A stretch of 64,000 nt of DNA from Candidatus Poriferihabitaceae bacterium (GTDB lineage Bacteria > Pseudomonadota > Gammaproteobacteria > Arenicellales > Poriferihabitantaceae): positions 2,502,174 through 2,566,173 of the forward strand of contig OZ241878.1 in the NCBI GenBank assembly GCA_965203365.1, written 5' to 3'. The notes under the pieces were generated by a model. That model saw only the letters and a program-made list of their open reading frames with translations, made no database searches and was not told the DNA's origin. The position numbers and the translations under genes are program-made. Of the stretch, positions 21,360 to 52,273 are shown piece after piece (within the stretch, counting starts at the first letter, position 1; every line of letters begins with the position of its first letter).

Positions 21360-21523
21360 GGATCCGAGCTTGCCCCAATGCGAACACGGGTGCCACAGAA
21401 AATCCGATCAGCCACTGACGGAATTGTCCCGATCCTTCTCCCCCCTTTCAACCTATGACACTTGTATCCAACCTCATTCTCGCTTTCTCTCACCTAGGGC
21501 ATCCCGTCCCAAGACCGCCCAGT

Positions 21524-22650
21524 TCAGTCGTTCAAGCCCCTGCCAGACCTGCTTCGCCCCCGGCAGCGGCGGGCTCTTCGACGGATGACTGCCCCCAGTC
21601 GGTCGAGATCGGTCACCCCGGGGCGGATGTGGGGCCCGGTCCGATTCGTCGGGGTCGGGGAATCCCGGACCGAGGGCGCGGACTCGTCGGTCGGGGGAGG
21701 ACTCGGCGAGACCGGACCGGATGGCGTCGGGACGGGCTGGTGGCCGGGTGCCCGCAGCCCGGGATGCAGCCCGTCGATCTCCTCCAGGTCAAAGACCACC
21801 GTCGCCGGCCCGTCAGGCTGCTCGCGGGCGAGGAACTTGTCGACCGTGCCGGTCATGCCCGTGTCGGGCACAGTGGTGGTGGTTCCGAACTTGGCCTTCA
21901 GCAGGGCCGTCGCCGTGAACGCGCCGCCCTCGCCCTTGCCGTCGAGCGGGTCGTGGATGGCATACTGGCCGACCACGGGTCCCTCGAAGGTCGCCCCGCC
22001 GCCGAGCAGGGCGTCGTCGTCCTCTCTCAACCACCAGCCGAAGTACGCAAAGTGATAATCGGGATGGATCACCCTGGCCCCCTCATCGTGAACGAACATC
22101 CAGTCGGCGTTGCTGGGGGTTTGCAGGAAGTAGCCGCCGGTCCCAACCCCGACATCGCAGGTGCCGGTGCCGGGAGTGCAGTAGTAGTAGCCGGGTGCGC
22201 CCCGGTAGGAGCCCCGGACCTGGATCTCCTCGGCTCCGTCTTTCGCCGGGAAGTTCAGGGTGCCCGACTCCGGGAACTCGGGGGAGTCGATGCTGTGGTC
22301 GATCCCGGTGCCCAGGGATATCCTGCGCTCCGCCGCGGTGTAGTCCCCCGCGTTGGCCGTGAAGCTGTCCTTGGCACCCTGATCAGGGAACCATTTCGCG
22401 ACCGGAATGGAGTTCGGCCCTGTCCGGTTGCTGTACACCTTGACCTTGTCGGTGAACTTCCCTTCGCCGGAGCCCTGGGTCCTCTCGTAGTCCGTGACCG
22501 TCCACACGCCGCCCACCTTCTCCTCGGCGTCTCTGGCCTCCTCCGTGCCGTGCCGGAAGCTCACCGCACCATGCTTGTCCGATGTCGCTCGCGACCCCAC
22601 CACCCGCCGCGGGATCAATCCGGAAGTCTCCCCGAGGCCGGTCCAGGGTG
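21524..22650 (-). pseudogene. SLP fragment beta4a (TbpB-like, 5'- and 3'-truncated, frameshifted)
   Basis: Matches beta1 from LDRPRGDFRIDPAAG to MTGTVDKF. A 1-nt insertion relative to beta1 occurs after RIDPAAG. No signal peptide, and the C-terminal barrel is replaced by unrelated sequence. Confidence 0.8.
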
Positions 22651-22833
22651 AAGAGGCCCTGTGAAGGATTCGACCGCAGCCTAACTTGTTCGCTCAAGGG
22701 TGTCAAAAACCTTGACACAACCTTGTTGCGCTGTTCCCCGGCGCAGGCTCCAAGCCGGGAAACCGCGTGTAGCCGCAAAGGACAGGAAAGTCAACAACCC
22801 CGGAGCTTCCGCTCGACAGCCAGCACCACCTCA

Positions 22834-22869
22834 TACAGCCTCGCCGAGGGTCGCATCGGCGAGGCTGTA
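22834..22869. other. Conserved hairpin in the alpha 3' flank (copy 1 of 4)
   Basis: tacagcctcgccga-gggtcgca-tcggcgaggctgta. No U-tract on either strand. Mirror copy at 26935-26970; other copies at 35511-35554 and 40765-40808. Confidence 0.6.
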
Positions 22870-22946
22870 CGAGAAAAGGGGGGGACGCCCGGCCTGGAAA
22901 GGAGAAGCCCACCGGCCGGGCGCCCGATCAGGGGTCAAGTCGATGG

Positions 22947-24665
22947 CTAGTCGTTGACGTTCTGTTTCGTGATGTTGCTCGCGCCGAACGCGCCGACCAG
23001 CCGATGGGTGGTGCTGTATTCGGAGTAGAAGGTTCCGAGGACCTTGTCCGCCTCGTCGCGGCCGTCGCCGCCATCCGCAACGGTTCCGGGCGTGGTGTCA
23101 AACAACCGGGCTTCCCAGCTGTTGAGAACCTCCGGCCCCTTGACGTCGCCGATCGACATGACCGTCTTGGTGCCCCTTCTGGTGACCCGGGTTCCGGTGC
23201 TCTGATCAAAGCCGCTTTTCATCAACTGCACGCTCCAGCCCGGATCCTCGGACCCGCCGTTCAGCCGAAACTCGTCGATCGTGCCGGACAGGCCCGCATC
23301 GCGCACATTGTCGGGGTCCCCGAACCGGGCCTTCAGCGTGGCCTTCGCCTCGAATGCGCCGCCCTCGCCCTCGCCGTTGCGCGGGTCGTGGATGGCGTAC
23401 TGGCCGACCGCGGGGCCCTCGAAGGTCGCCGAGCCGTTGTAATTTCTGGCGGACGAGGTGTTGTCATCAATCAAGCCCTCGTAGCCGAAAAAGGCGGTGG
23501 CCAGTCTGGGCACGTCGTCGCTGCTGTTCGATCTCACCCACCAGCCGAAGTACAGGTAGCTACTATCGGTGAGGGACACCTGGGCGCCCGGGTCGTGGAC
23601 GAACCTCCAGTCGCCATTACTGTTACCCATGGAGAGGCCGCCTCTATTCACCCGGACTTGGCAGTCGGTCTTGCAGTAATAGTAGCCGGGCGCCCCCTGG
23701 TAGGTGCCCCGCACCTTGACCTCCGAGGCTCCGTTTTTCGGAGCGAAGAGCTTGGTTCCGGCTGCCGGGAACTCGGGGGACGCAATGAGCGGATCGACAG
23801 CGAAGTTCAGGGACAGCGAGCGATTCTTCGCGGTGTAGGTCCCTGTAGTAGCCGGCTTGTCATCGGAGCCGAAGTGTGCCGCGGCATCCTTCTTCGTATT
23901 CTCCCCCCGATCGTTGTACACCCGGGCCCGGTCGGTGAACTCGGGCACCAACTGGCCCTCGGTCCGGATACCGTCGGTCTGGTCCGAGACCATCCAGTCG
24001 CCTACCTTCTTGACGGGTTTGACGGTCGTGAAGACCACCGGGGACTCGTTGGGGACGTAGACATCGTTGACCTCGGTGCTGATCGGCAAGTCCCCGCCGC
24101 CGTCCGTAGGATCGAGCTTGATGCCGGTCGGGTCTCCGGAATTCGACAGGCCCGTCTGAACGTCGGCCGCGTCTGCCAGGTTGTCCAGCGCGTTCTTGAC
24201 GGCTGCGGCGGTGGTGGTGCCAGGTACAAGCGGCCCGTCCAGCGCCGCAAACAGCGCCTTGCCCGTGGCGGCCATGGCCTTCTTCTCGGCGGCCGCCTTC
24301 CTCTGCATGGCGGCCGTGCGGGACGCCGTCTTTCCCTCAAGCGTGCCCTCGAGGTTCCCGAGCCGCTGGCTGAGGGCGGCCCGCTGCGCGGCAGGCACCT
24401 TGTCGACGGCCGCCTTGGCGGCCGCCACCTTCGCGTCGGCGTCCATGGTGTTTTCGGAGTCGTCCGTCACCAGGTCGACAGCCGTCTCCGCCTCATTGAG
24501 GGCCGTGGTCGCCGCGTCAGCAAGCTCCTTCGGGGTCATCTCGTTATCCGGGGGGGTCATCTCGTTATCCGGGGGCGTCACCGGACCGCTGCTGCCGCCC
24601 CCGCAGCCCGCCAAGGCCAACCCAGCGGCCAGCAAGACCGCCATTAAGACATTGTGTTTGTTCAT
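22947..24665 (-). CDS. Surface lipoprotein alpha1 (TbpB/fHbp-like, intact)
   Basis: Signal and lipobox MNKHNVLMAVLLAAGLALAG|C. Ala/Lys-rich helical region. YFGWW motif and C-terminal 8-strand-barrel signature GSATFEGPAVGQYA...GAFEAKATLKARFG...GTIDEF...WSV...GTFY...LVGAFGA. Confidence 0.85.
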   Translation of the reverse strand: MNKHNVLMAVLLAAGLALAGCGGGSSGPVTPPDNEMTPPDNEMTPKELADAATTALNEAETAVDLVTDDSENTMDADAKVAAAKAAVDKVPAAQRAALSQRLGNLEGTLEGKTASRTAAMQRKAAAEKKAMAATGKALFAALDGPLVPGTTTAAAVKNALDNLADAADVQTGLSNSGDPTGIKLDPTDGGGDLPISTEVNDVYVPNESPVVFTTVKPVKKVGDWMVSDQTDGIRTEGQLVPEFTDRARVYNDRGENTKKDAAAHFGSDDKPATTGTYTAKNRSLSLNFAVDPLIASPEFPAAGTKLFAPKNGASEVKVRGTYQGAPGYYYCKTDCQVRVNRGGLSMGNSNGDWRFVHDPGAQVSLTDSSYLYFGWWVRSNSSDDVPRLATAFFGYEGLIDDNTSSARNYNGSATFEGPAVGQYAIHDPRNGEGEGGAFEAKATLKARFGDPDNVRDAGLSGTIDEFRLNGGSEDPGWSVQLMKSGFDQSTGTRVTRRGTKTVMSIGDVKGPEVLNSWEARLFDTTPGTVADGGDGRDEADKVLGTFYSEYSTTHRLVGAFGASNITKQNVND

Positions 24666-24800
24666 CGTTCAGTTCATGTTAGCAGATTGATAATATTCAA
24701 GCGAAACAATTCAATGCGGATTCTAAACAGTGAGGAAACTCTGGCCAAGGGACACATCTACCGACCAGAATCGAACCTAAATCAGCAAATAAGAATCGAC

Positions 24801-24830
24801 ATTATACATCGTTAAATCCCACCACTTCAA
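24801..24830 (-). promoter_or_regulatory. Putative alpha1 promoter
   Basis: On the minus strand: TTGAAG (24825-24830), an 18-nt spacer, then TATAAT (24801-24806). Lies in the 294-bp AT-rich module 24666-24959. Confidence 0.5.
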
Positions 24831-24959
24831 TTCGATACTCGGGTCAAGGCGAAGTTGATGCGTGATTATCTATCGGAATCGCCTCGGATGCAAGCCATAA
24901 CTGGTTTTCCGAATTCAAGGCGGATATGTCTAATAAGTGATTGACTTTAATAATTATTA

Positions 24960-25111
24960 CACTCAGAAGCGCCCCGCTCGGTGCGCTGCCCGAATAAAGG
25001 GAGCGCGGCGGCGACCGGACAATTCGGCCCCCAAGAGGCTGATTCGGTCATCAATTTCACGACACCAAGGCCCGCTCGGGCCGTGTCAGATGGGTTTTGA
25101 CCGAGCGGGAC
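24960..25111 (-). mobile_element. IS30-family 3'-end remnant
   Basis: Homologous to the sequence downstream of the IS30 transposase stops at 42553-42770 and 44059-44300. Carries an internal ~50-bp deletion relative to 36971-37172. Confidence 0.6.
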
Positions 25112-25212
25112 TCAGATTAGGTGGCCTGGGCAGACCCGACTGACCAGTGCCACTCTGGGGCATGAGATCGGCTAGGGCAAGGGCTATGCCAAGGGATTCG
25201 AAGCCGGTCAAC
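25112..25212 (+). repeat. 101-bp end of an unclassified IS-like element (copy a)
   Basis: Near-identical to 59913-60013. Its end interrupts the alpha2 signal-peptide coding region just before LALAGC. Confidence 0.7.
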
Positions 25213-26857
25213 TGGTCTGGCCCTGGCGGGCTGCGGTGGGGGCAGTTCGAATGATCCTCCCCCGCCGGCTCCGGGGCAGACGCTGGAGGCCGCGGCGGCG
25301 GAGGCCCTTGATGCGGCGAAGAAGGCTGTCGACCTGGTGACGGACGACTCCGAAAACACCATGGACGCCGACGCGAAGGTGGCGGCCGCCAAGGCGGCCG
25401 TCGACAAGGTGCCTGCCGCGCAGCGGGCCGCCCTCAGCCAGCGGCTCGGGAACCTCGAGGGCACGCTTGAGGGAAAGACGGCGTCCCGCACGGCCGCCAT
25501 GCAGAGGAAGGCGGCCGCCGAGAAGAAGGCCATGGCCGCCACGGGCAAGGCGCTGTTTGCGGCGCTGGACGGGCCGCTTGTACCTGGCACCACCACCGCC
25601 GCAGCCGTCAAGAACGCGCTGGACAACCTGGCGGCTGCGGCCGAGGTGCAGACGGGCCTGTCGAATTCCGGAGACCCGACCGGCATCAAGCTCGATCCTA
25701 CGGACGGCGGCGGGGACTTGCCGATCAGCACCGAGGTCAACGATGTCTACGTCCCCAACGAGTCCCCGGTGGTCTTCACGACCGTCAAACCCGTCAAGAA
25801 GGTAGGCGACTGGATGGTCTCGGACCAGACCGACGGTATCCGGACCGAGGGCCAGTTGGTGCCCGAGTTCACCGACCGGGCCCGGGTGTACAACGATCGG
25901 GGGGAGAATACGAAGAAGGATGCCGCGGCACACTTCGGCTCCGATGACAAGCCGGCTACTACAGGGACCTACACCGCGAAGAATCGCTCGCTGTCCCTGA
26001 ACTTCGCTGTCGATCCGCTCATTGCGTCCCCCGAGTTCCCGGCAGCCGGAACCAAGCTCTTCGCTCCGAAAAACGGAGCCTCGGAGGTCAAGGTGCGGGG
26101 CACCTACCAGGGGGCGCCCGGCTACTATTACTGCAAGACCGACTGCCAAGTCCGGGTGAATAGAGGCGGCCTCTCCATGGGTAACAGTAATGGCGACTGG
26201 AGGTTCGTCCACGACCCGGGCGCCCAGGTGTCCCTCACCGATAGTAGCTACCTGTACTTCGGCTGGTGGGTGAGATCGAACAGCAGCGACGACGTGCCCA
26301 GACTGGCCACCGCCTTTTTCGGCTACGAGGGCTTGATTGATGACAACACCTCGTCCGCCAGAAATTACAACGGCTCGGCGACCTTCGAGGGCCCCGCGGT
26401 CGGCCAGTACGCCATCCACGACCCGCGCAACGGCGAGGGCGAGGGCGGCGCATTCGAGGCGAAGGCCACGCTGAAGGCCCGGTTCGGGGACCCCAACAAT
26501 GTGCGCGATGCGGGCCTGTCCGGCACGATCGACGAGTTTCGGCTGAACGGCGGGTCCGAGGATCCGGGCTGGAGCGTGCAGTTGGTGAAAAGCCGCTTTG
26601 AGAGTGCCGGAAAAAAGGTCACCAGAAGAGGCACCAAGACGGTCATGTCGATCGGCGACGTCAAGGGGCCGGAGGTTCTCAACAGCTGGGAAGCCCGGTT
26701 GTTTGACACCACGCCCGGAACCGTTGCGGATGGCGGCGACGGCCGCGACGAGGCGGACAAGGTCCTCGGAACCTTCTACTCCGAATACAGCACCACCCAT
26801 CGGCTGGTCGGCGCGTTCGGCGCGAGCAACATCACGAAACAGAACGTCAACGACTAG
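25208..26857 (+). pseudogene. SLP alpha2 (promoterless, signal peptide truncated)
   Basis: The body is ~99% identical to alpha1 from codon 62 onward. Only ...STGLALAGCGGGSS remains of the signal peptide. An in-frame stop at 25163 leaves no start codon upstream. Confidence 0.8.
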
Positions 26858-28359
26858 CCATCGACTTGACCCCTGATCGGGCGCCCGGCCGGTGGGCTTC
26901 TCCTTTCCAGGCCGGGCGTCCCCCCCTTTTCTCGTACAGCCTCGCCGATGCGACCCTCGGCGAGGCTGTATGAGGTGGTGCTGGCTGTCGAGCGGAAGCT
27001 CCGGGGTTGTTGACTTTCCTGTCCTTTGCGGCTACACGCGGTTTCCCGGCTTGGAGCCTGCGCCGGGGAACAGCGCAACAAGGTTGTGTCAAGGTTTTTG
27101 ACACCCTTGAGCGAACAAGTTAGGCTGCGGTCGAATCCTTCACAGGGCCTCTTCACCCTGGACCGGCCTCGGGGAGACTTCCGGATTGATCCCGCGGCGG
27201 GTGGTGGGGTCGCGAGCGACATCGGACAAGCATGGTGCGGTGAGCTTCCGGCACGGCACGGAGGAGGCCAGAGACGCCGAGGAGAAGGTGGGCGGCGTGT
27301 GGACGGTCACGGACTACGAGAGGACCCAGGGCTCCGGCGAAGGGAAGTTCACCGACAAGGTCAAGGTGTACAGCAACCGGACAGGGCCGAACTCCATTCC
27401 GGTCGCGAAATGGTTCCCTGATCAGGGTGCCAAGGACAGCTTCACGGCCAACGCGGGGGACTACACCGCGGCGGAGCGCAGGATATCCCTGGGCACCGGG
27501 ATCGACCACAGCATCGACTCCCCCGAGTTCCCGGAGTCGGGCACCCTGAACTTCCCGGCGAAAGACGGAGCCGAGGAGATCCAGGTCCGGGGCTCCTACC
27601 GGGGCGCACCCGGCTACTACTACTGCACTCCCGGCACCGGCACCTGCGATGTCGGGGTTGGGACCGGCGGCTACTTCCTGCAAACCCCCAGCAACGCCGA
27701 CTGGATGTTCGTTCACGATGAGGGGGCCAGGGTGATCCATCCCGATTATCACTTTGCGTACTTCGGCTGGTGGTTGAGAGAGGACGACGACGCCCTGCTC
27801 GGCGGCGGGGCGACCTTCGAGGGACCCGTGGTCGGCCAGTATGCCATCCACGACCCGCTCGACGGCAAGGGCGAGGGCGGCGCGTTCACGGCGACGGCCC
27901 TGCTGAAGGCCAAGTTCGGAACCACCACCACTGTGCCCGACACGGGCATGACCGGCACGGTCGACAAGTTCCTCGCCCGCGAGCAGCCTGACGGGCCGGC
28001 GACGGTGGTCTTTGACCTGGAGGAGATCGACGGGCTGCATCCCGGGCTGCGGGCACCCGGCCACCAGCCCGTCCCGACGCCATCCGGTCCGGTCTCGCCG
28101 AGTCCTCCCCCGACCGACGAGTCCGCGCCCTCGGTCCGGGATTCCCCGACCCCGACGAATCGGACCGGGCCCCACATCCGCCCCGGGGTGACCGATCTCG
28201 ACCGACTGGGGGCAGTCATCCGTCGAAGAGCCCGCCGCTGCCGGGGGCGAAGCAGGTCTGGCAGGGGCTTGAACGACTGAACTGGGCGGTCTTGGGACGG
28301 GATGCCCTAGGTGAGAGAAAGCGAGAATGAGGTTGGATACAAGTTTAATATGTTGAAAG
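25325..28359. repeat. IR1 right arm
   Basis: See 21445-24482. Confidence 0.9.
27154..28280 (+). pseudogene. SLP fragment beta4b (mirror of beta4a)
   Basis: The 364-aa ORF translation is identical to 21524-22618. Confidence 0.8.
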
Positions 28360-28536: not shown

Positions 28537-29874
28537 TCAGAGTGGTCGGACGAAGCTGAGTTCGGCGCGGTTGCGTTCGAAGTCGAGGGCCTGGGCGTTG
28601 GTGTGGCGTTCCTCGCGGATGAGCGACAGGCGCGGGCTGAAGCCGCGCAGGGTCAGGGCGCGATTGTGGACCGAGAAGGTGAAGGTCCGCGTCTCGTCCC
28701 GGCGGGACTTTCGGTCGATGGTGTGATGGGCGGCGCCGCTTCCCTGATAGTCGGTACGCTCCAAGGCGGTGCGCAGGCCCAGCGTGAAGCCCTTCGGCAA
28801 CGCCAGCGTGGCGCCAAGGCTCACCTGCGGACCCCGGCTACGCCAGTGTTCCACCTTTGCCCGACTCCAGTTCCACCCCACATTCCCGCCCAGGCGCAGC
28901 GTGGGCCGCGCGATCCAACTGGCCCCGAGCGAGATCTCCCCCTCTGGACCATCCAGATGGCCGCAGCCGCGGCAGTTGCGCCGGGCAGCGCTGGTTTGGG
29001 CGGATATCGACAGCCTTGGCGTCAGGCGACGATCCGCCTCCAGCCGCAGGCCGAAGCGATCGGTTTCGGGCCGCCCGGCGGTCCATTGCCGGTCCACGGT
29101 CGCCAGCAGGCTGGCTTCGGAGCGGGCATCGATCAGCCAGCGTGGGCCCAGGTGCAGGGCCAAGGATTGCCGGTCGAACTCCCGACCCCGGTATTCCCGG
29201 AGGCTGGCATTCGCGCCGATGCGCAGCCGCCGGTGGTCCGTCAGTGGGTGCTGGTATTCGCCCCCGCCCCAGAGGGACAGGCCGAGGCCGGATTCAGGCT
29301 TCGCCGGATCGTCCAGGGTGAAGGGCAGCCGCCCGAAGTCCGTGTCAAGGAAGATCGTGCGCTCTCCCGAGGCCGCATTGAGGTTGCTGTCCGGGGCGAT
29401 GGCCGCGCCGAACCAGGCCTCCCACCGCCGCCGCTGCCGCATGACCTGGAGAAAGCGTCGTAAATTGGCCACCACCGCCGGCGGCAGGTCTCCGGCCAGC
29501 ACTTGCTCGAAATGCCGTTTCGCCCGCCTGTCCTCCTCCTTCAGGAAGAAGGCGTACGCCAGTTCGAGGCGCACCCGCACCAGTTCCGGCTGATTCACCA
29601 GGATGGCCCGGAAGGCCGCGATGGCCTCGTCGAGTTTCCCGTCCCGGGTTGCCCGATCCGATGCGGCCCGGGCGGCCTGGAGTGCCGCCATCCCGGCCTC
29701 GAAACGCTGGCCAGTCAGGGCCTCGTCCGAGAGGGCCGTTGCTTCCGTCTTTCCCGTCGGGGTAGCGGGGTCGGCACCGAAGGCGGACGAGGGAGTCCCG
29801 CCGACGGTCACCAGCAGTCCGGCCAGCGGGATCAGCAGGGCCCGGAAAGCGGGGCCGACAGGAAATCGCATCAT
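28537..29874 (-). CDS. Slam (surface lipoprotein assembly modulator, DUF560) outer-membrane protein
   Basis: Signal peptide, then a TPR-like region, then the hallmark LPPAVVANLRRFLQVMRQRRRWEAWFGAAIAPDSNLNAAS, then an alternating beta-strand C-terminal domain ending FERNRAELSFVRPL. ATG chosen at 29872-29874; the ORF track begins at a TTG. Confidence 0.8.
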   Translation of the reverse strand: MMRFPVGPAFRALLIPLAGLLVTVGGTPSSAFGADPATPTGKTEATALSDEALTGQRFEAGMAALQAARAASDRATRDGKLDEAIAAFRAILVNQPELVRVRLELAYAFFLKEEDRRAKRHFEQVLAGDLPPAVVANLRRFLQVMRQRRRWEAWFGAAIAPDSNLNAASGERTIFLDTDFGRLPFTLDDPAKPESGLGLSLWGGGEYQHPLTDHRRLRIGANASLREYRGREFDRQSLALHLGPRWLIDARSEASLLATVDRQWTAGRPETDRFGLRLEADRRLTPRLSISAQTSAARRNCRGCGHLDGPEGEISLGASWIARPTLRLGGNVGWNWSRAKVEHWRSRGPQVSLGATLALPKGFTLGLRTALERTDYQGSGAAHHTIDRKSRRDETRTFTFSVHNRALTLRGFSPRLSLIREERHTNAQALDFERNRAELSFVRPL

Positions 29875-30001
29875 GGCGTCAGGGGGCAATCGGAAAAAAA
29901 GGGGGGAACCGGGAGAAGATCCAGAATCGGGAAGGGGGGTGCCGGAAGTGCTCCCAGGGTCAGGCCGGGAACCGGGGCGGATTCCCGCCTGAACGGGTCG
30001 G

Positions 30002-33444: not shown

Positions 33445-35094
33445 GGCGAGATGACCCCGCCGCCTCCGGGGCTGACGCTGGAGGCCGCGGCGAAGACGGC
33501 TGTCGGCATGGTGACGGACGACTCTGACGCCGCGGCGGTCACCGACGCCGAGAAGAAGGTGGCGGCCGCCAAGGCGGCCGTCGACAAGGTGCCTGCCGCG
33601 CAGCGGAACGCCCTCATCCGGCGGCTCGGGAACCTCGAGGGCAAGCTTGGGGGAAAGACGGCGTCCCGCACGGCCGCCATGGCGATGAAGGCGAAGGCCA
33701 TGGTTGCCCGCGGCAAGGCGCTGCTCGGGGCGATGACGAAGCCCGATGGTGACGACAAGACGGTGCTGGACAATCTCGAGAGCGATCCTGTCTACAACGA
33801 CCTCCTCGTCGATGATGCGACGTACGATGACGGTGCCCGCAAGGCCGTCCGGGCGAAAAACTACCTGGACCGGCCTCGGGGAGACTTCCGGATTGATCCT
33901 GCGGCGGGTGCGGGGTCGCGAGCGACGTCGGATCTGCATGGTGCGGTGAGCTTCCGGCACGGCACGGAGGAGGCCAGGGACGCCGAGGAGAAGGTGGACG
34001 GCGTGTGGACGGTCACGGACTACGTGAGGACCCAGGGCTCTGGCGAAGGGAAGTTCACCGACAAGGTCAAGGTGTACAGCGACCGGACGGGGCCGAACTC
34101 CATTCCGGCCGCGAAATGGTTCTCTGATTCGGGTGCCAAGGCCTCCTACACGGCCAACGCGGGGACCTACACCCCGGCGGAACGCAGGATATCCCTGAAC
34201 ACCGGGACCGACCACAGCATCGACTCCCCCGATTTCCCGGAGACGGGCACCAAGCCCTTCGCTCCGACAGACGGAGCCGATGAGGTCCAGGTCCGGGGCT
34301 CCTACCGGGGGGCGCCCGGCTACTACTACTGCACCCCCGGCACCAGTGAATCCTGCACGGTCGGGGTCGGGCAAATCGGCTACTTCCTGAGCGCCGGCTG
34401 GACGTTCGTCCATGACGAGGGGGCCATGGTGATCCACCCCGATACTGACTTTGCGTACTTCGGCTGGTGGTTGAGAGAGGACGACGACGGCCTGCCCGCG
34501 GCGGTCGCCCCCTTCTACGCCACCAGAGGCGGCGGCGTCGGGATCACCTCGGACGGCAACAGCCTGATCGGCGGCGAGGCGACCTTCGAGGGTCCCGCAG
34601 TCGGCCAGTATGCCATCCACGACCCGCTCGACGGCAAGGGCGAGGGCGGCGCGTTCACGGCGACGGCCCTGCTGAAGGCCAAGTTCGGAGCCAGCAACTT
34701 GGTGCCCGACACGGGCATGACCGGCACGGTCGACAAGTTCCGCCTGGAAAACGGGTCCGAGCCGAACTGGAGCGTGACGCTGAACAGGGGTGGCCCTGGC
34801 AGCACCCCTGCTTCGGATAATCGAGGCGGATGGAGGGCTGGCGCCAAGACGGACCCCGCCGCCAAGACGGTCTGGTCGATCGATGGCAACAAGGCGCTGG
34901 CGGCCGGCAGCTGGGTTGCCACGATGTATGATGAAACGCCCGATTTGCCCACGGTTGCCAGTGGCGGTATCACCAAACCGGTCGGCGACGGCAACAACAA
35001 TCCGACCCTGGTGCTCGGAAAGTTCCATGCCGAATACGGCGGCACCCACCGACTGGTCGGCGCCTTCGGCGCGAAGAGGGTTGTTGAAGAGTAG
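33445..35094 (+). pseudogene. SLP beta2 (promoterless, no signal peptide)
   Basis: Nearly identical to beta1 at a 4130-bp offset (33620-35111). The N-terminus is replaced by an IS remnant and there is no lipobox. Confidence 0.8.
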
Positions 35095-35104
35095 GAGCAG
35101 CCAT

Positions 35105-35458
35105 CGAACGGACCGGGGTGTGAAGCTCGAACTACGGGCCGGTTTCGTCGGTCTCGTCCCGCCCGCCGACCGGCCGACGGACACGCCACCCCTGCGGCTG
35201 CTTGCCGTGCGGGTGCGGGAACCCGAGCCGCCGGCCGGGAAGGAATCGCTCGACTGGCTGCTGCTGACGACCGAGGGTGAACCCCCCGCCGGGAACGCAC
35301 TGCGCGTCGCCGGGTGGTACGAGAAGCGGTGGCTGATCGAGGAATGGTTCCGCGCCCTGAAGACCGGCACGCGGATCAAGGACCGTCGGCTCAATGCCGC
35401 CGACAGCCTGTGCTGCTGCCTCGCCTTCGACGCGATCACGGCCTGCACCGTGATGTCG
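35105..35458 (+). mobile_element. Tn5-like IS4 transposase fragment (C-terminal catalytic region)
   Basis: LDWLLLTTEGEPPAGNALRVAGWYEKRWLIEEWFRALKTGTRIKDRRL compares with Tn5 LKWLLLTSEPVESLAQALRVIDIYTHRWRIEEFHKAWKTGAGAERQRM. Confidence 0.7.
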
Positions 35459-35510
35459 AAGGACAGGAAAGTCAACAACCCCGGAGCTTCCGCTCGACAG
35501 CCAGCACCAC

Positions 35511-35554
35511 CTCGTACAGCCTCGCCGAGGGTCGCATCGGCGAGGCTGTACGAG
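35511..35554. other. 18-bp perfect-stem hairpin in the alpha 3' flank
   Basis: ctcgtacagcctcgccga-gggtcgca-tcggcgaggctgtacgag. Confidence 0.6.
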
Positions 35555-35653
35555 AAAAGGGGGAACGCCCGGCCTGGAAAGGAGAAGCCAACCGGCCCGG
35601 GCGCCCGATCAGGGGTCAGGGAACGGCACCACCTGCCCCCCTCCGTTTGATGG

Positions 35654-36917
35654 CTATTCGTTGACGTTCTGTTTCGTGATGTTGCTCGCGCCGAACGCGC
35701 CGACCAGCCGATGGGTGGTGCTGTATTCGGAGTAGAAGGTTCCGAGGATCTTGTCCGCCTCGTTGGAGCCGTCGCCGCCGTCCGCAACGGTTCCGGGCGT
35801 GGTGTCAAACAACCGGGCGTCCCAGCTGTTGAGAACCTCCGGCCCCTTGAAGTCGCCGATCGACATGACCGTCTTGGTGCCTCTTCTGGTGACCTTTTTT
35901 CCGGCACTCTCAAAGCGGCTTTTCACCAACTGCACGCTCCAGCCCGGATCCTCGGACCCGCCGTTCAGCCGAAACTCGTCGATCGTGCCGGACAGGCCCG
36001 CATCGCGCACATTGTTGGGGTCCCCGAACCGGGCCTTCAGCGTGGCCTTCGCCTCGAATGCGCCGCCCTCGCCCTCGCCGTTGCGCGGGTCGTGGATGGC
36101 GTACTGGCCGACCGCGGGGCCCTCGAAGGTCGCGGAGCCGTCGTAATCGCGGGCGCTCGTAGTTTTGCCTTCCTCCAGAGTGACGCCCTCGAAGCCGAAA
36201 AAGGCGGTGGCCAGTCTGGGCACGTCGTCGCTGCTGTTCGATCTCACCCACCAGCCGAAATACAGGTAGTCGGAATCAGGGAGGGACACCTGGGCGTCCG
36301 GGTCGTGGACGAACCTCCAGCCGGCATACAGGCTGATGCCGCCTCTTCTCACCTGGACTTGGCAGTCGGTCTTGCAGTAATAGTAGCCGGGCGCCCCCTG
36401 GTAGGTGCCCCGCACCTTGACCTCCGAGGCTCCGTCTGTCGGCTCGAAGGTATGGCTTCCGGCTCCCTGCACCGGGAACTCGGGGGACGCAATGCGCGGA
36501 TCGACAGCGAAGTTCAGGGACAGCGAGCGATTCTTCGCGGTGTAGGTCCCTGTAGTAGCCGGCTTGTCATCGGAGCCGAAGTGTGCCGCGGCATCCTTCT
36601 TCGTATTCTCCCCCCGATCGTTGTACACCCGGGCCCGGTCGGTGAACTCGGGCACCAACTGGCCCTCGGTCCGGATACCGTCGGTCTGGTCCGAGACCAT
36701 CCAGTCGCCTACCTTCTTGACGGGTTTGACGGTCGTGAAGACCACCGGGGACTCGTTGGGGACGTCGACATCGTTGACTTTGGTGCTGATCGGCAAGTCC
36801 CCGCCGCCGTCCGTAGGATCGAGCTTGATGCCGGTCGGGTCTCCGGAATTCGACAGGCCCGTCTGAACGTCGGCCGCGTCTGCCAGGTTGTCCAGCGCGT
36901 TCTTGACGGCTGCGGCG
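35654..36917 (-). pseudogene. SLP alpha3 (5'-truncated cassette with variant central block)
   Basis: Homology to alpha1 begins at ...NALDNLADAADVQTG (breakpoint ~36917). No signal peptide or promoter. The central block differs (VQGAGSHTFEPTDG...GVTLEEGKTTSARDYDGS). Confidence 0.8.
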
Positions 36918-36970
36918 CTGTCAGAGGCGGGCGCCGGCCCGCCCAGCGCCGCTGGTCGGTGTGTGTAAAT

Positions 36971-37172
36971 GACGGGCCGGGTCCCGCTCGGTCAAAACCC
37001 GTCTGACACGGCCCGAGCGGGCTCTGGCGTCGTGAAATCGCCTCGGTCAGACTTCCTGGCGCCGAGCGGGATGCCATTGATGACCGACATCCGCCCCTTG
37101 GGGGCCGAATTTTCCGGTCGCCGCCGCGCTCCCTTTATTCGGGCAGCGCACCGAGCGGGGCGCTTCTGAGTG
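36971..37172 (+). mobile_element. IS30-family 3'-end remnant abutting the beta1 promoter module
   Basis: Homologous to 44090-44300 and 42553-42770. Ends ...GAGCGGGGCGCTTCTGAGTG. Confidence 0.6.
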
Positions 37173-37301
37173 TAATAATTATTAAAGTCAATCACTTATT
37201 AGACATATCCGCCTTGAATTCGGAAAACCAGTTATGGCTTGCATCCGAGGCGATTCCGATAGATAATCACGCATCAACTTCGCCTTGACCCGAGTATCGA
37301 A

Positions 37302-37331
37302 TTGAAGTGGTGGGATTTAACGATGTATAAT
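37302..37331 (+). promoter_or_regulatory. Putative beta1 promoter
   Basis: TTGAAG (37302-37307), an 18-nt spacer, then TATAAT (37326-37331). Lies in the AT-rich module 37173-37466, an exact mirror of 24666-24959. Confidence 0.5.
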
Positions 37332-37466
37332 GTCGATTCTTATTTGCTGATTTAGGTTCGATTCTGGTCGGTAGATGTGTCCCTTGGCCAGAGTTTCCTC
37401 ACTGTTTAGAATCCGCATTGAATTGTTTCGCTTGAATATTATCAATCTGCTAACATGAACTGAACG

Positions 37467-39224
37467 ATGAACAAACACAATGTCTTAATGGCGGTCTTGC
37501 TGGCCGCTGGGTTGGCCTTGGCGGGCTGCGGGGGCGGCAGCAGCGATCCGGTGACGCCCCCGGATAACGAGATGACCCCGAAGGAGCTTGCTGACGCGGC
37601 GACCACGGCCCTCAATGAGGCGGAGACGGCTGTCGGCATGGTGACGGACACGGCCGATGACGCCAAGGTCACCGCCGCCGACGCGAAGGTGGCGGCCGCC
37701 AAGGCGGCCGTCGACAAGGTGCCTGCCGCGCAGCGGGCCGCCCTCAGCCAGCGGCTCGGGAACCTCGAGGGCAAGCTTGGGGGAAAGACGGCGTCCCGCA
37801 CGGCCGCCATGGCGATGAAGGCGAAGGCCATGGTTGCCCGCGGCAAGGCGCTGCTCGGGGCGATGACGAAGCCCGATGGTGACGACAAGACGGTGCTGGA
37901 CAATCTCGAGAGCGATCCTGTCTACAACGACCTCCTCGTCGATGATGCGACGTACGATGACGGTGCCCGCAAGGCCGTCCGGGCGAAAAACTACCTGGAC
38001 CGGCCTCGGGGAGACTTCCGGATTGATCCTGCGGCGGGTGCGGGGTCGCGAGCGACGTCGGATCTGCATGGTGCGGTGAGCTTCCGGCACGGCACGGAGG
38101 AGGCCAGGGACGCCGAGGAGAAGGTGGACGGCGTGTGGACGGTCACGGACTACGTGAGGACCCAGGGCTCTGGCGAAGGGAAGTTCACCGACAAGGTCAA
38201 GGTGTACAGCGACCGGACGGGGCCGAACTCCATTCCGGCCGCGAAATGGTTCTCTGATTCGGGTGCCAAGGCCTCCTACACGGCCAACGCGGGGACCTAC
38301 ACCCCGGCGGAACGCAGGATATCCCTGAACACCGGGACCGACCACAGCATCGACTCCCCCGATTTCCCGGAGACGGGCACCAAGCCCTTCGCTCCGACAG
38401 ACGGAGCCGATGAGGTCCAGGTCCGGGGCTCCTACCGGGGGGCGCCCGGCTACTACTACTGCACCCCCGGCACCAGTGAATCCTGCACGGTCGGGGTCAG
38501 GCAAATCGGCTACTTCCTGAGCGCCGGCTGGACGTTCGTCCATGACGAGGGGGCCATGGTGATCCACCCCGATACTGACTTTGCGTACTTCGGCTGGTGG
38601 TTGAGAGAGGACGACGACGGCCTGCCCGCGGCGGTCGCCCCCTTCTACGCCACCAGAGGCGGCGGCGTCGGGATCACCTCGGACGGCAACAGCCTGATCG
38701 GCGGCGAGGCGACCTTCGAGGGTCCCGCAGTCGGCCAGTATGCCATCCACGACCCGCTCGACGGCAAGGGCGAGGGCGGCGCGTTCACGGCGACGGCCCT
38801 GCTGAAGGCCAAGTTCGGAGCCAGCAACTTGGTGCCCGACACGGGCATGACCGGCACGGTCGACAAGTTCCGCCTGGAAAACGGGTCCGAGCCGAACTGG
38901 AGCGTGACGCTGAACAGGGGTGGCCCTGGCAGCACCCCTGCTTCGGATAATCGAGGCGGATGGAGGGCTGGCGCCAAGACGGACCCCGCCGCCAAGACGG
39001 TCTGGTCGATCGATGGCAACAAGGCGCTGGCGGCCGGCAGCTGGGTTGCCACGATGTATGATGAAACGCCCGGTTTGCCCACGGTTGCCAGTGGCGGTAT
39101 CACCAAACCGGTCGGCGACGGCAACAACAATCCGACCCTGGTGCTCGGAAAGTTCCATGCCGAATACGGCGGCACCCACCGACTGGTCGGCGCCTTCGGC
39201 GCGAAGAGGGTTGTTGAAGAGTAG
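37467..39224 (+). CDS. Surface lipoprotein beta1 (TbpB/fHbp-like, intact)
   Basis: 585 aa with the same signal and lipobox as alpha1. YFGWWLRED motif and barrel signature GEATFEGPAVGQYA...GAFTATALLKAKFG...GTVDKF...WSV...GKFH...LVGAFGA. Confidence 0.85.
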   Translation: MNKHNVLMAVLLAAGLALAGCGGGSSDPVTPPDNEMTPKELADAATTALNEAETAVGMVTDTADDAKVTAADAKVAAAKAAVDKVPAAQRAALSQRLGNLEGKLGGKTASRTAAMAMKAKAMVARGKALLGAMTKPDGDDKTVLDNLESDPVYNDLLVDDATYDDGARKAVRAKNYLDRPRGDFRIDPAAGAGSRATSDLHGAVSFRHGTEEARDAEEKVDGVWTVTDYVRTQGSGEGKFTDKVKVYSDRTGPNSIPAAKWFSDSGAKASYTANAGTYTPAERRISLNTGTDHSIDSPDFPETGTKPFAPTDGADEVQVRGSYRGAPGYYYCTPGTSESCTVGVRQIGYFLSAGWTFVHDEGAMVIHPDTDFAYFGWWLREDDDGLPAAVAPFYATRGGGVGITSDGNSLIGGEATFEGPAVGQYAIHDPLDGKGEGGAFTATALLKAKFGASNLVPDTGMTGTVDKFRLENGSEPNWSVTLNRGGPGSTPASDNRGGWRAGAKTDPAAKTVWSIDGNKALAAGSWVATMYDETPGLPTVASGGITKPVGDGNNNPTLVLGKFHAEYGGTHRLVGAFGAKRVVEE

Positions 39225-40665: not shown

Positions 40666-40860
40666 CCATCAAACGGAGGGGGGCAGGTGGTGCCGTTCCC
40701 TGACCCCTGATCGGGCGCCCGGGCCGGTTGGCTTCTCCTTTCCAGGCCGGGCGTTCCCCCTTTTCTCGTACAGCCTCGCCGATGCGACCCTCGGCGAGGC
40801 TGTACGAGGTGGTGCTGGCTGTCGAGCGGAAGCTCCGGGGTTGTTGACTTTCCTGTCCTT

Positions 40861-41214
40861 CGACATCACGGTGCAGGCCGTGATCGCGTCGAAGGCGAGG
40901 CAGCAGCACAGGCTGTCGGCGGCATTGAGCCGACGGTCCTTGATCCGCGTGCCGGTCTTCAGGGCGCGGAACCATTCCTCGATCAGCCACCGCTTCTCGT
41001 ACCACCCGGCGACGCGCAGTGCGTTCCCGGCGGGGGGTTCACCCTCGGTCGTCAGCAGCAGCCAGTCGAGCGATTCCTTCCCGGCCGGCGGCTCGGGTTC
41101 CCGCACCCGCACGGCAAGCAGCCGCAGGGGTGGCGTGTCCGTCGGCCGGTCGGCGGGCGGGACGAGACCGACGAAACCGGCCCGTAGTTCGAGCTTCACA
41201 CCCCGGTCCGTTCG
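40861..41214 (-). mobile_element. Tn5-like IS4 transposase fragment (mirror copy)
   Basis: Translation identical to 35105-35458. Confidence 0.7.
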
Positions 41215-41224
41215 ATGGCTGCTC

Positions 41225-52272: not shown

Positions 52273-52273
52273 A

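What the first reader, a model, noticed from the sequence alone, without database searches (positions are those of the whole stretch)
21445..28359. 3-kb near-identical inverted repeat flanking an 842-bp segment that holds the only promoter and lipoprotein signal: a possible flip-flop expression switch
Seen in sequence. The arms are 21445-24482 and 25325-28359. Each carries one alpha-type SLP body plus one beta4 fragment. The 842-bp spacer (24483-25324) contains the first 61 codons of alpha1 (signal peptide and lipobox), a 294-bp AT-rich promoter/leader module and two IS ends. Identity between the arms starts exactly at alpha1 codon 62 (AVDLVTDD). The arms differ only in three small patches. 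Patch 1: 23184-23222 MKSGFDQSTGTRV versus 26585-26620 VKSRFESAGKKV. Patch 2: a single D/N nucleotide change. Patch 3: 24159-24176 ADAADV versus 25631-25648 AAAAEV.
Inference. Homologous recombination anywhere in the arms would invert the spacer. That would splice the promoter and signal sequence onto the alpha2 body and silence the alpha1 body. The geometry resembles the Campylobacter fetus sapA system, where a promoter on an invertible segment sits between oppositely oriented cassettes and inversion is RecA-dependent. Here it would act on a Slam-type lipoprotein.
Basis: partly seen in the sequence, partly recalled or inferred. Interest (0 to 1): 0.8.

Follow-up and report, generated by a model that had tools for sequence, protein, structure and literature searches.

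The report
Invertible promoter between lipoprotein gene copies
Two nearly identical, oppositely oriented copies of a surface-lipoprotein gene flank the only promoter and export signal, so ordinary recombination could flip that piece and swap a few exposed loops of the protein; whether it actually flips could not be tested here.

Summary
Arms 21445-24483 and 25324-28359 are 99.3% identical: 21 differing columns, 17 of them in two short patches.

- **Genes.** The spacer carries a predicted promoter in a 40% GC stretch and the first 61 codons (signal peptide and lipobox) of one complete lipoprotein gene, alpha1. The facing copy, alpha2, keeps only an in-frame lipobox remnant with no start codon. 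It is cut off by two short repeated elements.
- **Protein class.** Alpha1 folds like fHbp, the TbpB C-lobe and NHBA. A Slam gene lies beside the right arm.
- **Simulated inversion.** It gives intact 571/572-aa lipoproteins, but at most 10 residues change. About 58% of possible crossover sites change nothing.
- **Wider family.**
  - The same promoter module sits on a beta-type body at 37 kb.
  - There are several 5'-truncated copies.
  - A second inverted repeat is 100% identical.
  - The mosaic pattern shows past exchange between copies.
- **What is missing.** No second assembly, reads or recombinase gene were available, and the closest relative has a plain alpha-beta tandem.

Best reading (about 0.5): an expression-site/silent-copy pair that varies surface loops by general homologous recombination. 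It works like Campylobacter fetus sap and Mycoplasma pulmonis vsa but is a member of neither. The main rival is an accidental duplication truncated by an insertion sequence (IS).

The parts
21445..24483 (-). Left arm of the inverted repeat. It holds the alpha1 body (codons 62-572), a 300-nt intergenic stretch, an internal beta-type pseudogene fragment and a 125-nt terminal element.
   Evidence: The beta fragment (21832-22647) matches only the middle of the beta gene of relative L002. The terminal element 21445-21570 also occurs at 62657-62783, with the same end point.
22947..24665 (-). alpha1, a complete 572-aa surface lipoprotein gene with signal peptide MNKHNVLMAVLLAAGLALAGC.
   Evidence: ORF. 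It is identical to P0062 of the public 3.70-Mb contig. AlphaFold model, mean pLDDT 72.5. Foldseek: fHbp prob 1.00, TbpB C-lobe 0.97, NHBA 0.99.
24483..24665 (-). First 61 codons of alpha1 (signal peptide, lipobox and a 21-nt tandem repeat encoding PPDNEMT). This is the coding part of the P (promoter) module.
   Evidence: It is about 90% identical, together with the promoter, to 37628-36981.
24666..24963 (-). Promoter/leader stretch of 40% GC, with a predicted sigma-70-type promoter TTGAAG-18-TATAAT at 24830-24801.
   Evidence: GC 0.40 against 0.64 for the window. Consensus scan; this is a prediction only. Identical copy upstream of the beta gene at 37467.
24964..25111 (+). Repeated element A, an IS30-associated end-like repeat.
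   Evidence: Copies at 36971-37168, 42553-42718 and 44107-44290. The last two flank an IS30-like pseudogene (rve, HTH_38).
25112..25212 (+). Repeated element B. It abuts and truncates the alpha2 signal-peptide coding region.
   Evidence: 97% copy at 59913-60013. Junction read.
25212..25323 (+). Q module: the diverged remnant of alpha2's own 5' end. It has an in-frame lipobox but no start codon.
   Evidence: It is related to the 5' remnant of the silent beta copy at 33451 (25260-25297 vs 33455-33492).
25324..28359 (+). Right arm of the inverted repeat: the alpha2 body (ORF 25337-26857, 506 aa, frame intact) plus the same beta fragment and terminal element.
   Evidence: The public protein P0001 matches the alpha2 ORF at 99.8%.
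28537..29889 (-). Slam (surface lipoprotein assembly modulator) gene. It lies downstream of a further family member at 30143-31594 (-).
   Evidence: PF04575 E=9.7e-21 and TPR_Slam. Homologues 70-72% identical lie directly after homologues of these lipoproteins in 14 other loci.
36981..37628 (+). Second copy of the P module. It drives a beta-type gene, 37467-39224 (585 aa, P0065).
33767..36437 (.). Left arm of a second inverted repeat, 100% identical to 42552-39882. It holds a silent beta body and the 3' part of the silent alpha3 copy.
   Evidence: Silent beta 33451-35091 = P0008 (no signal peptide). Alpha3 (35459-36952, minus strand) has an intact frame from 36955 to its stop at 35654-35656.
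39882..42552 (.). Right arm of the second inverted repeat. It holds the alpha4 fragment (39880-40860, +) and a 5'-truncated beta copy (41225-42553, -, P0064).

Best explanation
The repeat is a head-to-head pair of one expressed and one 5'-truncated ('silent') copy of a Slam-type surface-lipoprotein gene. It sits inside a larger family of such cassettes that is reshuffled by general homologous recombination.

**Anatomy.**
- The 842-nt spacer carries the P module: an end-like repeat, a 40% GC promoter and the first 61 codons with the signal peptide and lipobox.
- The spacer also carries the dead 5' stump of the second copy.

**Proposed action.**
- A RecA-type crossover anywhere in the 3-kb arms would flip the spacer.
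- The expressed gene would then be alpha1 up to the crossover and alpha2 beyond it.
- Non-reciprocal gene conversion from alpha2, alpha3 or alpha4 would have the same effect.
- The net result is low-amplitude variation of two predicted loops of the C-terminal beta-rich region and one low-confidence linker, not on/off switching.

**Shown:** the anatomy, the fold and Slam linkage, the in-frame outcome of simulated inversion, and past recombination within the family.

**Inferred:** that inversion or conversion happens at a useful rate, that the predicted promoter fires, and that the variation is selected.
For: **Geometry**
- The only start codon, lipobox with signal peptide, and promoter candidate lie in the spacer.
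- Simulated inversion at four crossover points gives intact 571/572-aa lipoproteins with three different patch combinations.

**Protein class**
- Foldseek matches to fHbp, the TbpB C-lobe and NHBA.
- A Slam gene lies next to the right arm.
- Slam follows homologues of these lipoproteins in 14 other loci.

**Recombination in the family**
- The 21 arm differences are clustered: 0 of 200,000 random placements reach the observed clustering.
- The differences are mosaic. For patch 1 and the D/N site, alpha2 equals alpha3 and alpha4. For patch 3, alpha1 equals alpha3.
- Alpha1 against alpha3 alternates between 100%-identical 60-nt windows and windows of 65-73% identity.
- The copies are 99.3% alike, while the orthologue in L001/L002 is about 86%. 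This indicates concerted evolution.
- The P module ends at the same nucleotide where alpha1/alpha2 identity begins. That point lies inside a 5' block conserved in all paralogues.
- All four module-body combinations exist: P+alpha, Q+alpha, P+beta and Q'+beta.
- A second inverted repeat, 100% identical over 2671 nt, surrounds the second P module.

**Location of the differences**
- The D/N site and patch 1 fall between predicted strands.
- Patch 3 falls in a low-confidence linker.

**Other variation devices in the family**
- G9, G20 and C9 tracts lie next to TTGACA/TTGACC hexamers upstream of three other members.
Against: - **No direct evidence of inversion.**
  - The organism is represented by one assembly.
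  - Its alpha cluster holds only alpha1 and alpha2.
  - Metagenome scans found nothing.
- **Small effect.**
  - The bodies differ by only about 10 residues.
  - About 58% of the arm (21460-23174) lies distal to the last difference.
  - The repeat runs 1.5 kb past the alpha stop codon into a pseudogene, which a purpose-built switch does not need.
- **Scar-like silencing.** Alpha2 is silent because repeated elements A and B replaced its promoter and first 12 or so codons.
- **Not conserved.**
  - The closest relative (L002/L003) has a plain tandem of complete alpha and beta genes and no large inverted repeat.
  - Inverted pairs in other metagenome-assembled genomes (MAGs) have other geometries, tail-to-tail or with both copies complete.
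- **No donor found.** The alpha1-specific patch 1 and the alpha2-specific patch 3 have no donor in the window or among 66 retrieved family proteins.
- **Promoter.** It is only a consensus match in AT-rich DNA.
Confidence: 0.5

Rival explanations
1. Evolutionary accident. A recent inverted segmental duplication of an alpha-beta unit arose in a rearrangement-prone region next to an integrative conjugative element (ICE). One copy was then decapitated by insertion and deletion of IS-type elements. Alpha2 is simply a young pseudogene. Inversion may happen now and then but has no role.
For: - The arms share the same truncated beta fragment and the same outer end, so they were copied as one 3-kb block.
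- The alpha2 5' end is replaced by repeated elements A and B.
- The left arm abuts a broken ICE transfer operon.
- A TrwC-like fragment lies at 32850 and an IS30-like pseudogene at 43.2-44.1 kb.
- The closest relative lacks the repeat.
- Most crossover positions would leave the protein unchanged.
Against: - Plain divergence after a duplication does not give two dense patches with mosaic matches to other copies.
- The same P module is also joined to a beta body, again with an inverted near-identical truncated copy nearby.
- All silent bodies keep intact reading frames. Recency could also explain this.
- The family carries other variation devices, the poly-G/C tracts.
Confidence: 0.3
2. Variation runs mainly by non-reciprocal gene conversion from 5'-truncated silent cassettes (alpha2, alpha3, alpha4) into the expressed alpha1, as in Neisseria pilE/pilS. 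The inverted orientation and the possibility of flipping are incidental.
For: - Several 5'-truncated copies exist in both orientations.
- The conserved-framework and variable-segment mosaic between alpha1/2 and alpha3/4.
- Short patches rather than long exchanged tracts distinguish alpha1 from alpha2.
Against: - No pilE-like G-quadruplex motif lies near the expression site.
- Reciprocal exchange is equally compatible with the four module-body combinations.
- Nothing in one static sequence separates conversion from crossover.
Confidence: 0.15
3. Assembly artefact: a foldback or chimeric join, or a collapsed repeat, in a metagenome-assembled genome.
For: - The source is a single metagenome-derived contig.
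- Repeats of this kind are hard to assemble.
- No reads could be inspected.
Against: - The arms are not identical. Their differences are allele-like and match other copies.
- Each arm has its own distinct inner junction (P module against Q remnant) and its own outer flank (ICE gene against Slam).
- A foldback artefact would give a perfect palindrome without an 842-nt structured spacer.
- The whole structure is 6.9 kb. It would be spanned by single long reads if the genome was assembled like the neighbouring long-read MAGs; that is an inference.
Confidence: 0.04
4. Site-specific inversion by a dedicated recombinase acting at short sites at the arm/spacer borders, as in Mycoplasma vsa/vpma or Hin/Fim switches.
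For: The P-module border coincides with a short block, GCTGTCG(A/G)C(C/A)TGGTGACGGAC, that is conserved in all paralogues.
Against: - No recombinase gene lies between 21 and 43 kb.
- The only candidates are an ICE integrase-family gene at 6081-6998 and an IS30-like pseudogene at 43.2-44.1 kb.
- The conserved block encodes a conserved helix also present in orthologues, so it needs no further explanation.
- Three kilobases of homology make a dedicated enzyme unnecessary.
Confidence: 0.03

Closest known systems
Campylobacter fetus sap (S-layer) locus: a single promoter on an invertible segment between oppositely oriented sapA homologues. Source: Dworkin & Blaser 1996, title as listed in PMC4902306 ref. 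62. Inversion is mostly RecA-dependent but is also seen without RecA (Ray et al. 2000, cited in PMC5634654). Details beyond these citations are from my own knowledge.
   Same: - One promoter lies between inverted paralogous surface-protein cassettes.
- Exchange goes through long homology rather than a dedicated short site.
- There are several cassettes, so nested rearrangements are possible.
- All family members share a conserved 5' block.
   Different: - In sap every cassette is a complete ORF and only the promoter moves. Here the invertible piece carries the start codon, signal peptide and 61 codons, and the silent copy is 5'-truncated.
- In sap the homology is a 5' block and the bodies differ strongly. 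Here the homology is the whole body plus 1.5 kb, and the bodies differ by about 10 residues.
- The protein class and export route differ (S-layer protein against Slam-type lipoprotein).
- Inversion has not been shown here.
Mycoplasma pulmonis vsa locus, with the related M. agalactiae vpma and Ureaplasma mba. The promoter and N-terminal coding DNA of an expression site are recombined onto silent genes that lack 5' ends, by site-specific inversion (PMC4534519; PMC3047005).
   Same: - The expression site consists of the promoter plus the lipoprotein signal and N-terminus.
- Silent copies lack the 5' end.
- The fusion point lies inside the ORF.
- The product is a chimeric surface lipoprotein.
   Different: - The mycoplasma systems use a dedicated recombinase (HvsR, Xer1) and short recombination sites.
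- Here no recombinase gene is nearby and the repeats are 3 kb long.
- The silent bodies here are nearly identical rather than different.
Neisseria pilE/pilS and similar silent-cassette gene-conversion systems (own knowledge).
   Same: - One expressed gene and several 5'-truncated copies.
- A conserved framework with short variable segments.
   Different: - No G-quadruplex initiator motif was found near the expression site.
- The orientation here allows reciprocal inversion.
- Conversion is not demonstrated.
Known variation of Slam-dependent lipoproteins in Neisseria and Moraxella (TbpB, LbpB, fHbp, HpuA): allelic diversity and homopolymer-tract phase variation (own knowledge; Slam background in PMC9090332).
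   Same: - The same fold class and linkage to Slam.
- Homopolymer tracts lie upstream of three family members in this window.
   Different: A full-text search for Slam, surface lipoprotein and silent cassette found no paper, and I know of no report of silent cassettes or promoter inversion for this protein class.

Membership tests
Slam-dependent surface lipoproteins (TbpB/fHbp/HpuA type) | N-terminal lipoprotein signal peptide with lipobox | tested here: met
   Alpha1 begins MNKHNVLMAVLLAAGLALAGC. The same signal is found in five other full-length family members.
Slam-dependent surface lipoproteins (TbpB/fHbp/HpuA type) | C-terminal beta-barrel/handle fold of the TbpB C-lobe/fHbp/NHBA type | tested here: met
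   Model with mean pLDDT 72.5. Foldseek: 5nqx_B fHbp prob 1.00, 5kkx_A TbpB C-lobe 0.97, 6cuj_A NHBA 0.99, target-normalised TM 0.42-0.63. Sequence methods found nothing.
Slam-dependent surface lipoproteins (TbpB/fHbp/HpuA type) | Neighbouring Slam (PF04575) gene | tested here: met
   Gene at 28537-29889 (-), E=9.7e-21. Slam follows homologues of these lipoproteins in 14 other loci.
Slam-dependent surface lipoproteins (TbpB/fHbp/HpuA type) | Slam-dependent display on the cell surface | not testable with these tools
   Needs an experiment.
C. fetus sap-type promoter inversion | Unique promoter on a segment between oppositely oriented homologous cassettes | tested here: met
   The geometry is met. 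Promoter candidates are found only in 24720-24830, and the cassettes are head-to-head. The promoter itself is only predicted.
C. fetus sap-type promoter inversion | Each cassette is a complete ORF with its own start; homology is limited to a conserved 5' region | tested here: not met
   Alpha2 has no start codon or signal peptide. The homology is 3 kb and covers the whole body.
C. fetus sap-type promoter inversion | Both orientations observed; dependence on RecA | not testable with these tools
   Only one assembly exists.
Mycoplasma vsa/vpma-type expression-site inversion | Expression site with promoter and lipoprotein N-terminus; silent genes lack 5' ends | tested here: met
Mycoplasma vsa/vpma-type expression-site inversion | Dedicated site-specific recombinase gene in the locus, and short recombination sites | tested here: not met
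   None of the ORFs scanned between 21 and 43 kb, the SLP cassettes and Slam, matched a recombinase domain. The nearest candidates are an ICE integrase-family gene at 6081-6998 and an IS30-like pseudogene. The repeats are 3 kb long.
pilE/pilS-type silent-cassette gene conversion | 5'-truncated silent copies with conserved and variable segments | tested here: met
   Alpha2, alpha3, alpha4 and two truncated beta copies. Mosaic identity profile.
pilE/pilS-type silent-cassette gene conversion | Non-reciprocal transfer into the expressed gene | tested here: inconclusive
   The patch pattern fits conversion, but one static sequence cannot separate it from crossover.
pilE/pilS-type silent-cassette gene conversion | G-quadruplex initiator upstream of the expressed gene | tested here: not met
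   No G4 motif lies near 24.5-25.3 kb.

The most novel reading that the evidence does not exclude
An uncultured marine gammaproteobacterium runs a multi-cassette antigenic-variation system for Slam-dependent surface lipoproteins. The system would combine:
- two copies of a portable expression module (promoter plus signal peptide plus about 60 codons);
- 5'-truncated silent alpha and beta cassettes in both orientations, exchanged by inversion and gene conversion;
- homopolymer-tract promoters on other family members.

It would be the first silent-cassette or invertible-promoter system for this protein class, and it would sit outside the classical pathogens.
Probability: 0.3. Interest if true: 0.75.

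Novelty: new variant of a known kind. Interest (0 to 1): 0.5.

Why it matters
- **Protein class.**
  - Slam-dependent lipoproteins (TbpB, fHbp, NHBA and relatives) are major surface antigens and vaccine components.
  - Their known variation is allelic or by homopolymer tracts.
  - A locus that pairs an expressed copy with silent copies around a flip-able promoter/signal module would add recombinational cassette variation to this class.
- **Host.**
  - It would also show such a system in an environmental, probably host-associated, uncultured bacterium.
  - There the selective agent is more likely phage or a host than an antibody response.
- **Testability.** The structure is only 6.9 kb. Single long reads from the existing sample can count both orientations and all patch combinations without a culture.

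Tried and rejected
- **Fetching the same locus or other assemblies of the organism.**
  - Exact look-ups of alpha1, alpha2, the silent beta, PurL and another family member found no record.
  - The window's genome (a 3,699,958-nt contig) could therefore not be read outside the window.
- **Genome collection.**
  - A scan with alpha1 alone found nothing.
  - A scan with a family alignment found 41 loci, all from other species.
- **Metagenome collection.** Scans with a promoter-module 43-mer and a conserved alpha 39-mer found nothing.
- **Donors for the unique patches.** The alpha1-specific patch 1 and the alpha2-specific patch 3 have no donor in the window or in 66 retrieved proteins.
- **Sequence-based family assignment.** Pfam, NCBIfam and a PDB sequence profile gave no usable family for the lipoproteins. 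Only the fold comparison worked.
- **RNA genes.** Rfam and tRNA scans of the window found nothing.
- **Recurrence of the layout in other genomes: rejected.** Near-identical inverted pairs of these lipoprotein genes are common there.
  - L012 is tail-to-tail with two complete genes.
  - L022 is head-to-head with two complete genes.
  - In L011 both copies keep their start codon.
- **A pilE-like G-quadruplex near the expression site.** None was found.
- **The ATPase/nuclease gene at 14394-15968.** A PADLOC scan gave no hit.
- **Alpha2 as a functional gene with a misplaced start: rejected.**
  - A stop codon lies 19 codons upstream of the lipobox remnant's first residue.
  - There is no ATG/GTG/TTG in between.
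  - Only six hydrophobic residues precede the Cys.

Full report
**1. The observation**

The inverted repeat is real and far beyond chance.
- The repeat finder reports arms 21445-23203/26601-28359 (99%) and 23206-24525/25282-26601 (98%).
- Self-BLAST gives 21445-24516 against 28359-25291 at 99.0% over 3072 nt.
- A base-by-base alignment shows near-identity from 21445 to 24483, with 21 differing columns:
  - 3 at the outer edge (21453, 21457, 21459);
  - 12 within 23175-23222, including a 3-nt indel;
  - 1 at 23312;
  - 5 within 24159-24174.
- The stretches between these are perfectly identical for 1715, 846 and 309 nt.
- Random placement of 21 differences never put more than 6 in a 48-nt window in 200,000 trials. 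The observed maximum is 12.

**2. Anatomy of the spacer**

Read from left to right, the spacer holds the following:
- **24483-24665:** the first 61 codons of alpha1 on the minus strand, with signal peptide MNKHNVLMAVLLAAGLALAGC.
- **24666-24963:** 298 nt of 40% GC in a 64% GC window. The scan places TTGAAG-18-TATAAT at 24830-24801 on the minus strand. This is a consensus match only.
- **24964-25111, element A:** it has three other copies in the window. Two of them flank an IS30-like pseudogene at 43.2-44.1 kb in inverted orientation (rve, HTH_38).
- **25112-25212, element B:** it has one 97% copy at 59913-60013.
- **25212-25323:**
  - In the alpha2 frame it reads ...*DRLGQGLCQGIRSRSTGLALAGCGGGSSNDPPPPAPGQTLEAAAAEALDAAKKAVDLVTDD.
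  - It has a lipobox, but there is a stop upstream, no ATG/GTG/TTG and no hydrophobic core.

Alpha2 is therefore a gene whose promoter and first dozen codons were replaced by repeated elements. Its 506-codon body is intact.

**3. What the genes are**

- Sequence libraries do not recognise the proteins.
- An AlphaFold model of alpha1 built on a 15-sequence alignment has mean pLDDT 72.5.
- The model matches three Neisseria Slam-dependent lipoproteins with high Foldseek probability:
  - fHbp, 5nqx_B, probability 1.00;
  - TbpB C-lobe, 5kkx_A, 0.97;
  - NHBA C-domain, 6cuj_A, 0.99.
- A Slam gene (PF04575, E=9.7e-21) lies at 28537-29889, just outside the right arm.
- Slam homologues 70-72% identical lie directly after homologues of these lipoproteins in 14 loci from other genomes.
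- The 'Slam-type lipoprotein' label is supported.
- Each arm also contains an internal fragment of a beta-type paralogue. It matches only the middle of the beta gene of the relative L002. Each arm ends in a 125-nt element that also occurs at 62657-62783 with the same end point.

**4. The wider locus**

The window holds a whole family of these genes.
- **Full-length genes with the same signal peptide:**
  - alpha1;
  - a beta gene at 37467-39224;
  - two gamma genes at 57135-58778 (+) and 61838-60225 (-).
- **A further member:** 30143-31594 (-), with a related signal peptide, lies upstream of Slam.
- **5'-truncated copies:**
  - alpha2;
  - alpha3 (35459-36952, -; frame intact over 433 codons);
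  - alpha4 (39880-40860, +);
  - beta copies at 33451-35091 (+) and 41225-42553 (-);
  - the two beta fragments in the arms.
- **Promoter module:**
  - Element A, the 40% GC promoter and the 5' coding part (24483-25111) recur at 37628-36981 at about 90% identity.
  - The promoter part is identical.
  - There the module is joined to a beta body.
- **Second inverted repeat:** 33767-36437 equals 42552-39882 at 100% over 2671 nt. It surrounds that second module.

**5. Evidence that the family recombines**

- **Mosaic patches.** At patch 1 and the D/N site, alpha2 is identical to alpha3 and alpha4 and close to the orthologue in L001. At patch 3, alpha1 is identical to alpha3.
- **Mosaic profile.** Alpha1 against alpha3 shows 60-nt windows of 100% identity alternating with windows of 65-73%. 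In those diverged windows alpha3 resembles the L001 orthologue.
- **Concerted evolution.** The copies in this genome are 99.3% alike. The orthologue in the closest relative is about 86% identical to alpha1.
- **Shared junction.** The body-side end of the promoter module (24483) is the very nucleotide where alpha1/alpha2 identity starts. It lies in a 5' block, GCTGTCG(A/G)C(C/A)TGGTGACGGAC..., that is conserved in all paralogues and orthologues.
- **All four combinations exist**:
  - the promoter module on an alpha body;
  - the promoter module on a beta body;
  - a related stump on the silent alpha body;
  - a related stump on the silent beta body.

These points show that 5' modules and bodies have been exchanged. 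They do not show when, or how often.

**6. What inversion would do**

I built the inverted sequences in silico. The outcome depends on where the crossover falls:

| Crossover interval | Length | Share of arm | Expressed product |
|---|---|---|---|
| 24175-24483 | 309 nt | about 10% | 571-aa lipoprotein with all three alpha2 variants |
| 23313-24158 | 846 nt | about 28% | alpha1 patch 3, alpha2 D/N site and patch 1 |
| 23223-23311 | 89 nt | about 3% | only patch 1 exchanged (by the same logic; not simulated) |
| 21460-23174 | 1715 nt | about 58% | protein unchanged |

- At most about 10 residues change.
- The D/N site and patch 1 lie between predicted strands. Patch 3 lies in a low-confidence linker.
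- The device would therefore vary loops rather than switch a gene on and off.

**7. What speaks against a purpose-built switch**

- No second assembly, read set or strain could be examined.
  - The alpha cluster in the 15-billion-protein collection holds only alpha1 and alpha2.
  - The look-ups and scans failed.
- The closest relative, MAG OZ241893.1 (loci L002/L003), has a simple tandem of complete alpha and beta genes.
- Near-identical inverted pairs of these lipoprotein genes are frequent in other MAGs, but with other geometries.
- The arms extend 1.5 kb past the alpha stop codon.
- Alpha2's silence is a scar made of repeated elements.
- The surroundings are rearranged:
  - The left arm starts 85 nt upstream of the DUF1525 gene of an ICE transfer operon (TraD, TraG_N, TIGR03755, TraU, DUF1525). 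From my knowledge of that ICE family, the upstream part of the operon is missing.
  - A weak TrwC-like fragment lies at 32850.
- No recombinase gene lies between 21 and 43 kb. General homologous recombination is therefore the only plausible mechanism. That 3-kb inverted repeats recombine in RecA-proficient bacteria is established knowledge; it was not tested here.

**8. Comparison with known systems**

- **C. fetus sap.** The principle matches: a single promoter on an invertible segment between inverted homologues (Dworkin & Blaser 1996, as cited in PMC4902306; RecA issue via PMC5634654).
- **M. pulmonis vsa.** The fusion logic is closer still. There the promoter and N-terminal coding DNA of an expression site are recombined onto silent genes lacking 5' ends (PMC4534519).
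- **Membership.** It belongs to neither family.
  - The silent copy is not a complete ORF, and the homology is not restricted to a 5' block (against sap).
  - There is no dedicated recombinase or short site (against vsa).
- **Literature.** A full-text search for Slam, surface lipoprotein and silent cassette found no paper.

**9. Host**

- The single-chain PurL at 44574-48536 finds gammaproteobacterial relatives:
  - an Arenicellales MAG at 65% identity;
  - Candidatus Spongiihabitans at 59%;
  - the best unnamed hit, apart from the window's own PurL, at 73%.
- The alpha gene is 78% identical in protein, and 86-92% in DNA, to a gene in a MAG labelled Alphaproteobacteria.
- These lipoprotein cassettes have probably moved horizontally.

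**10. Verdict**

Actual flipping, its rate and its benefit are untested, and the expected effect is small.
- I put 0.5 on an expression-site/silent-copy pair that varies surface loops by homologous recombination.
- I put 0.3 on an accidental duplication truncated by IS-type elements.
- The remainder goes to conversion as the main route, an assembly artefact, or site-specific inversion.

Noticed in passing
window 56958-56966, 62007-62026, 31759-31767: Homopolymer tracts lie about 170 nt upstream of three other family members. G9 and G20 (gene strand) sit directly after a TTGACA hexamer upstream of the gamma genes at 57135 (+) and 61838 (-). C9 (gene strand) follows TTGACC upstream of the gene at 31594 (-). 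The two gamma promoters differ mainly in tract length (9 against 20). This looks like slipped-strand phase variation of promoter spacing.
   Followed up: partly
window 33767-36437 and 39882-42552: A second inverted repeat is 100% identical over 2671 nt. It surrounds the second promoter module and the whole expressed beta gene (37467-39224). In addition, the expressed beta and a truncated inverted copy (42552-41208) are 99.85% identical over 1345 nt.
   Followed up: partly
window 536-21359 and 32850-33050: An ICE-type conjugation gene set (TraD, DUF2859, TraG_N, TIGR03755, TraU, DUF1525) ends abruptly 85 nt from the left arm. From my knowledge of that ICE family, an ATPase gene expected upstream of DUF1525 is missing. 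A weak N-terminal TrwC relaxase fragment lies at 32850. The lipoprotein array seems to sit between broken pieces of mobile elements.
   Followed up: partly
window 14394-15968 (-); loci L004, L006, L007, L010, L011, L012, L015, L026, L027, L034: A 524-aa protein with AAA-ATPase_like (PF09820) and PDDEXK_9 nuclease (PF08011) domains has 50-53% identical homologues within 10 kb of homologues of these lipoproteins. They occur in 10 of the fetched loci, from four other MAGs, often in several copies. Some themselves form the inverted or direct repeats that flank the lipoprotein genes. There is no PADLOC hit. The background frequency is unknown, so enrichment is not shown.
   Followed up: partly
loci L012, L013, L015, L022-L025, L010/L011, L027: Near-identical (97-100%) inverted repeats of 1.7-4 kb that include homologues of these lipoproteins recur in several unrelated MAGs (Paracoccaceae, Alphaproteobacteria). 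Their geometries vary: tail-to-tail, or head-to-head with both copies complete.
   Followed up: partly
window 22947-24665 against L001/L002/L003; window 44574-48536: The alpha gene is 86-92% identical in DNA to a gene in a MAG labelled Alphaproteobacteria (OZ241893.1). The host's PurL finds nothing closer than 73% protein identity apart from the window's own PurL, and its named relatives are gammaproteobacterial. This suggests horizontal transfer of the cassettes.
   Followed up: partly
window 43198-44058, flanked by 42553-42718 and 44107-44290: An IS30-like transposase pseudogene (HTH_38 and rve pieces in different ORFs) is flanked by inverted copies of repeated element A. Further copies of element A lie immediately upstream of both promoter modules, and one abuts the truncated beta copy at 42552.
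   Followed up: partly
window 21445-21570, 28234-28359, 62657-62783: A 125-nt element forms the outer end of both arms. It recurs at 62.7 kb (88% identical), and all three copies start at the same point (CTTTCAACATATGACACTT...). Its nature is unknown.
   Followed up: no
window 23538-23545, 22031-22038, 26262-26269, 27766-27773 and other cassettes: The E. coli Chi octamer GCTGGTGG occurs in the coding orientation in most cassettes, because it is encoded by the conserved FGWW motif. There are 23 copies in 64 kb, about half of them in the cassettes. It is probably a by-product of the protein motif. Whether this host recognises that sequence is unknown.
   Followed up: no
window 24532-24580; 51198-52985: A 21-nt tandem repeat (2.3 copies, PPDNEMT) lies in the alpha1 5' coding part and is single-copy in the second promoter module. 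Long 33/87/153-nt tandem arrays lie in and next to a CCDC90-like coiled-coil gene at 52274-53461. A CCDC90-like gene also lies near the alpha-beta pair of the relative L002.
   Followed up: no
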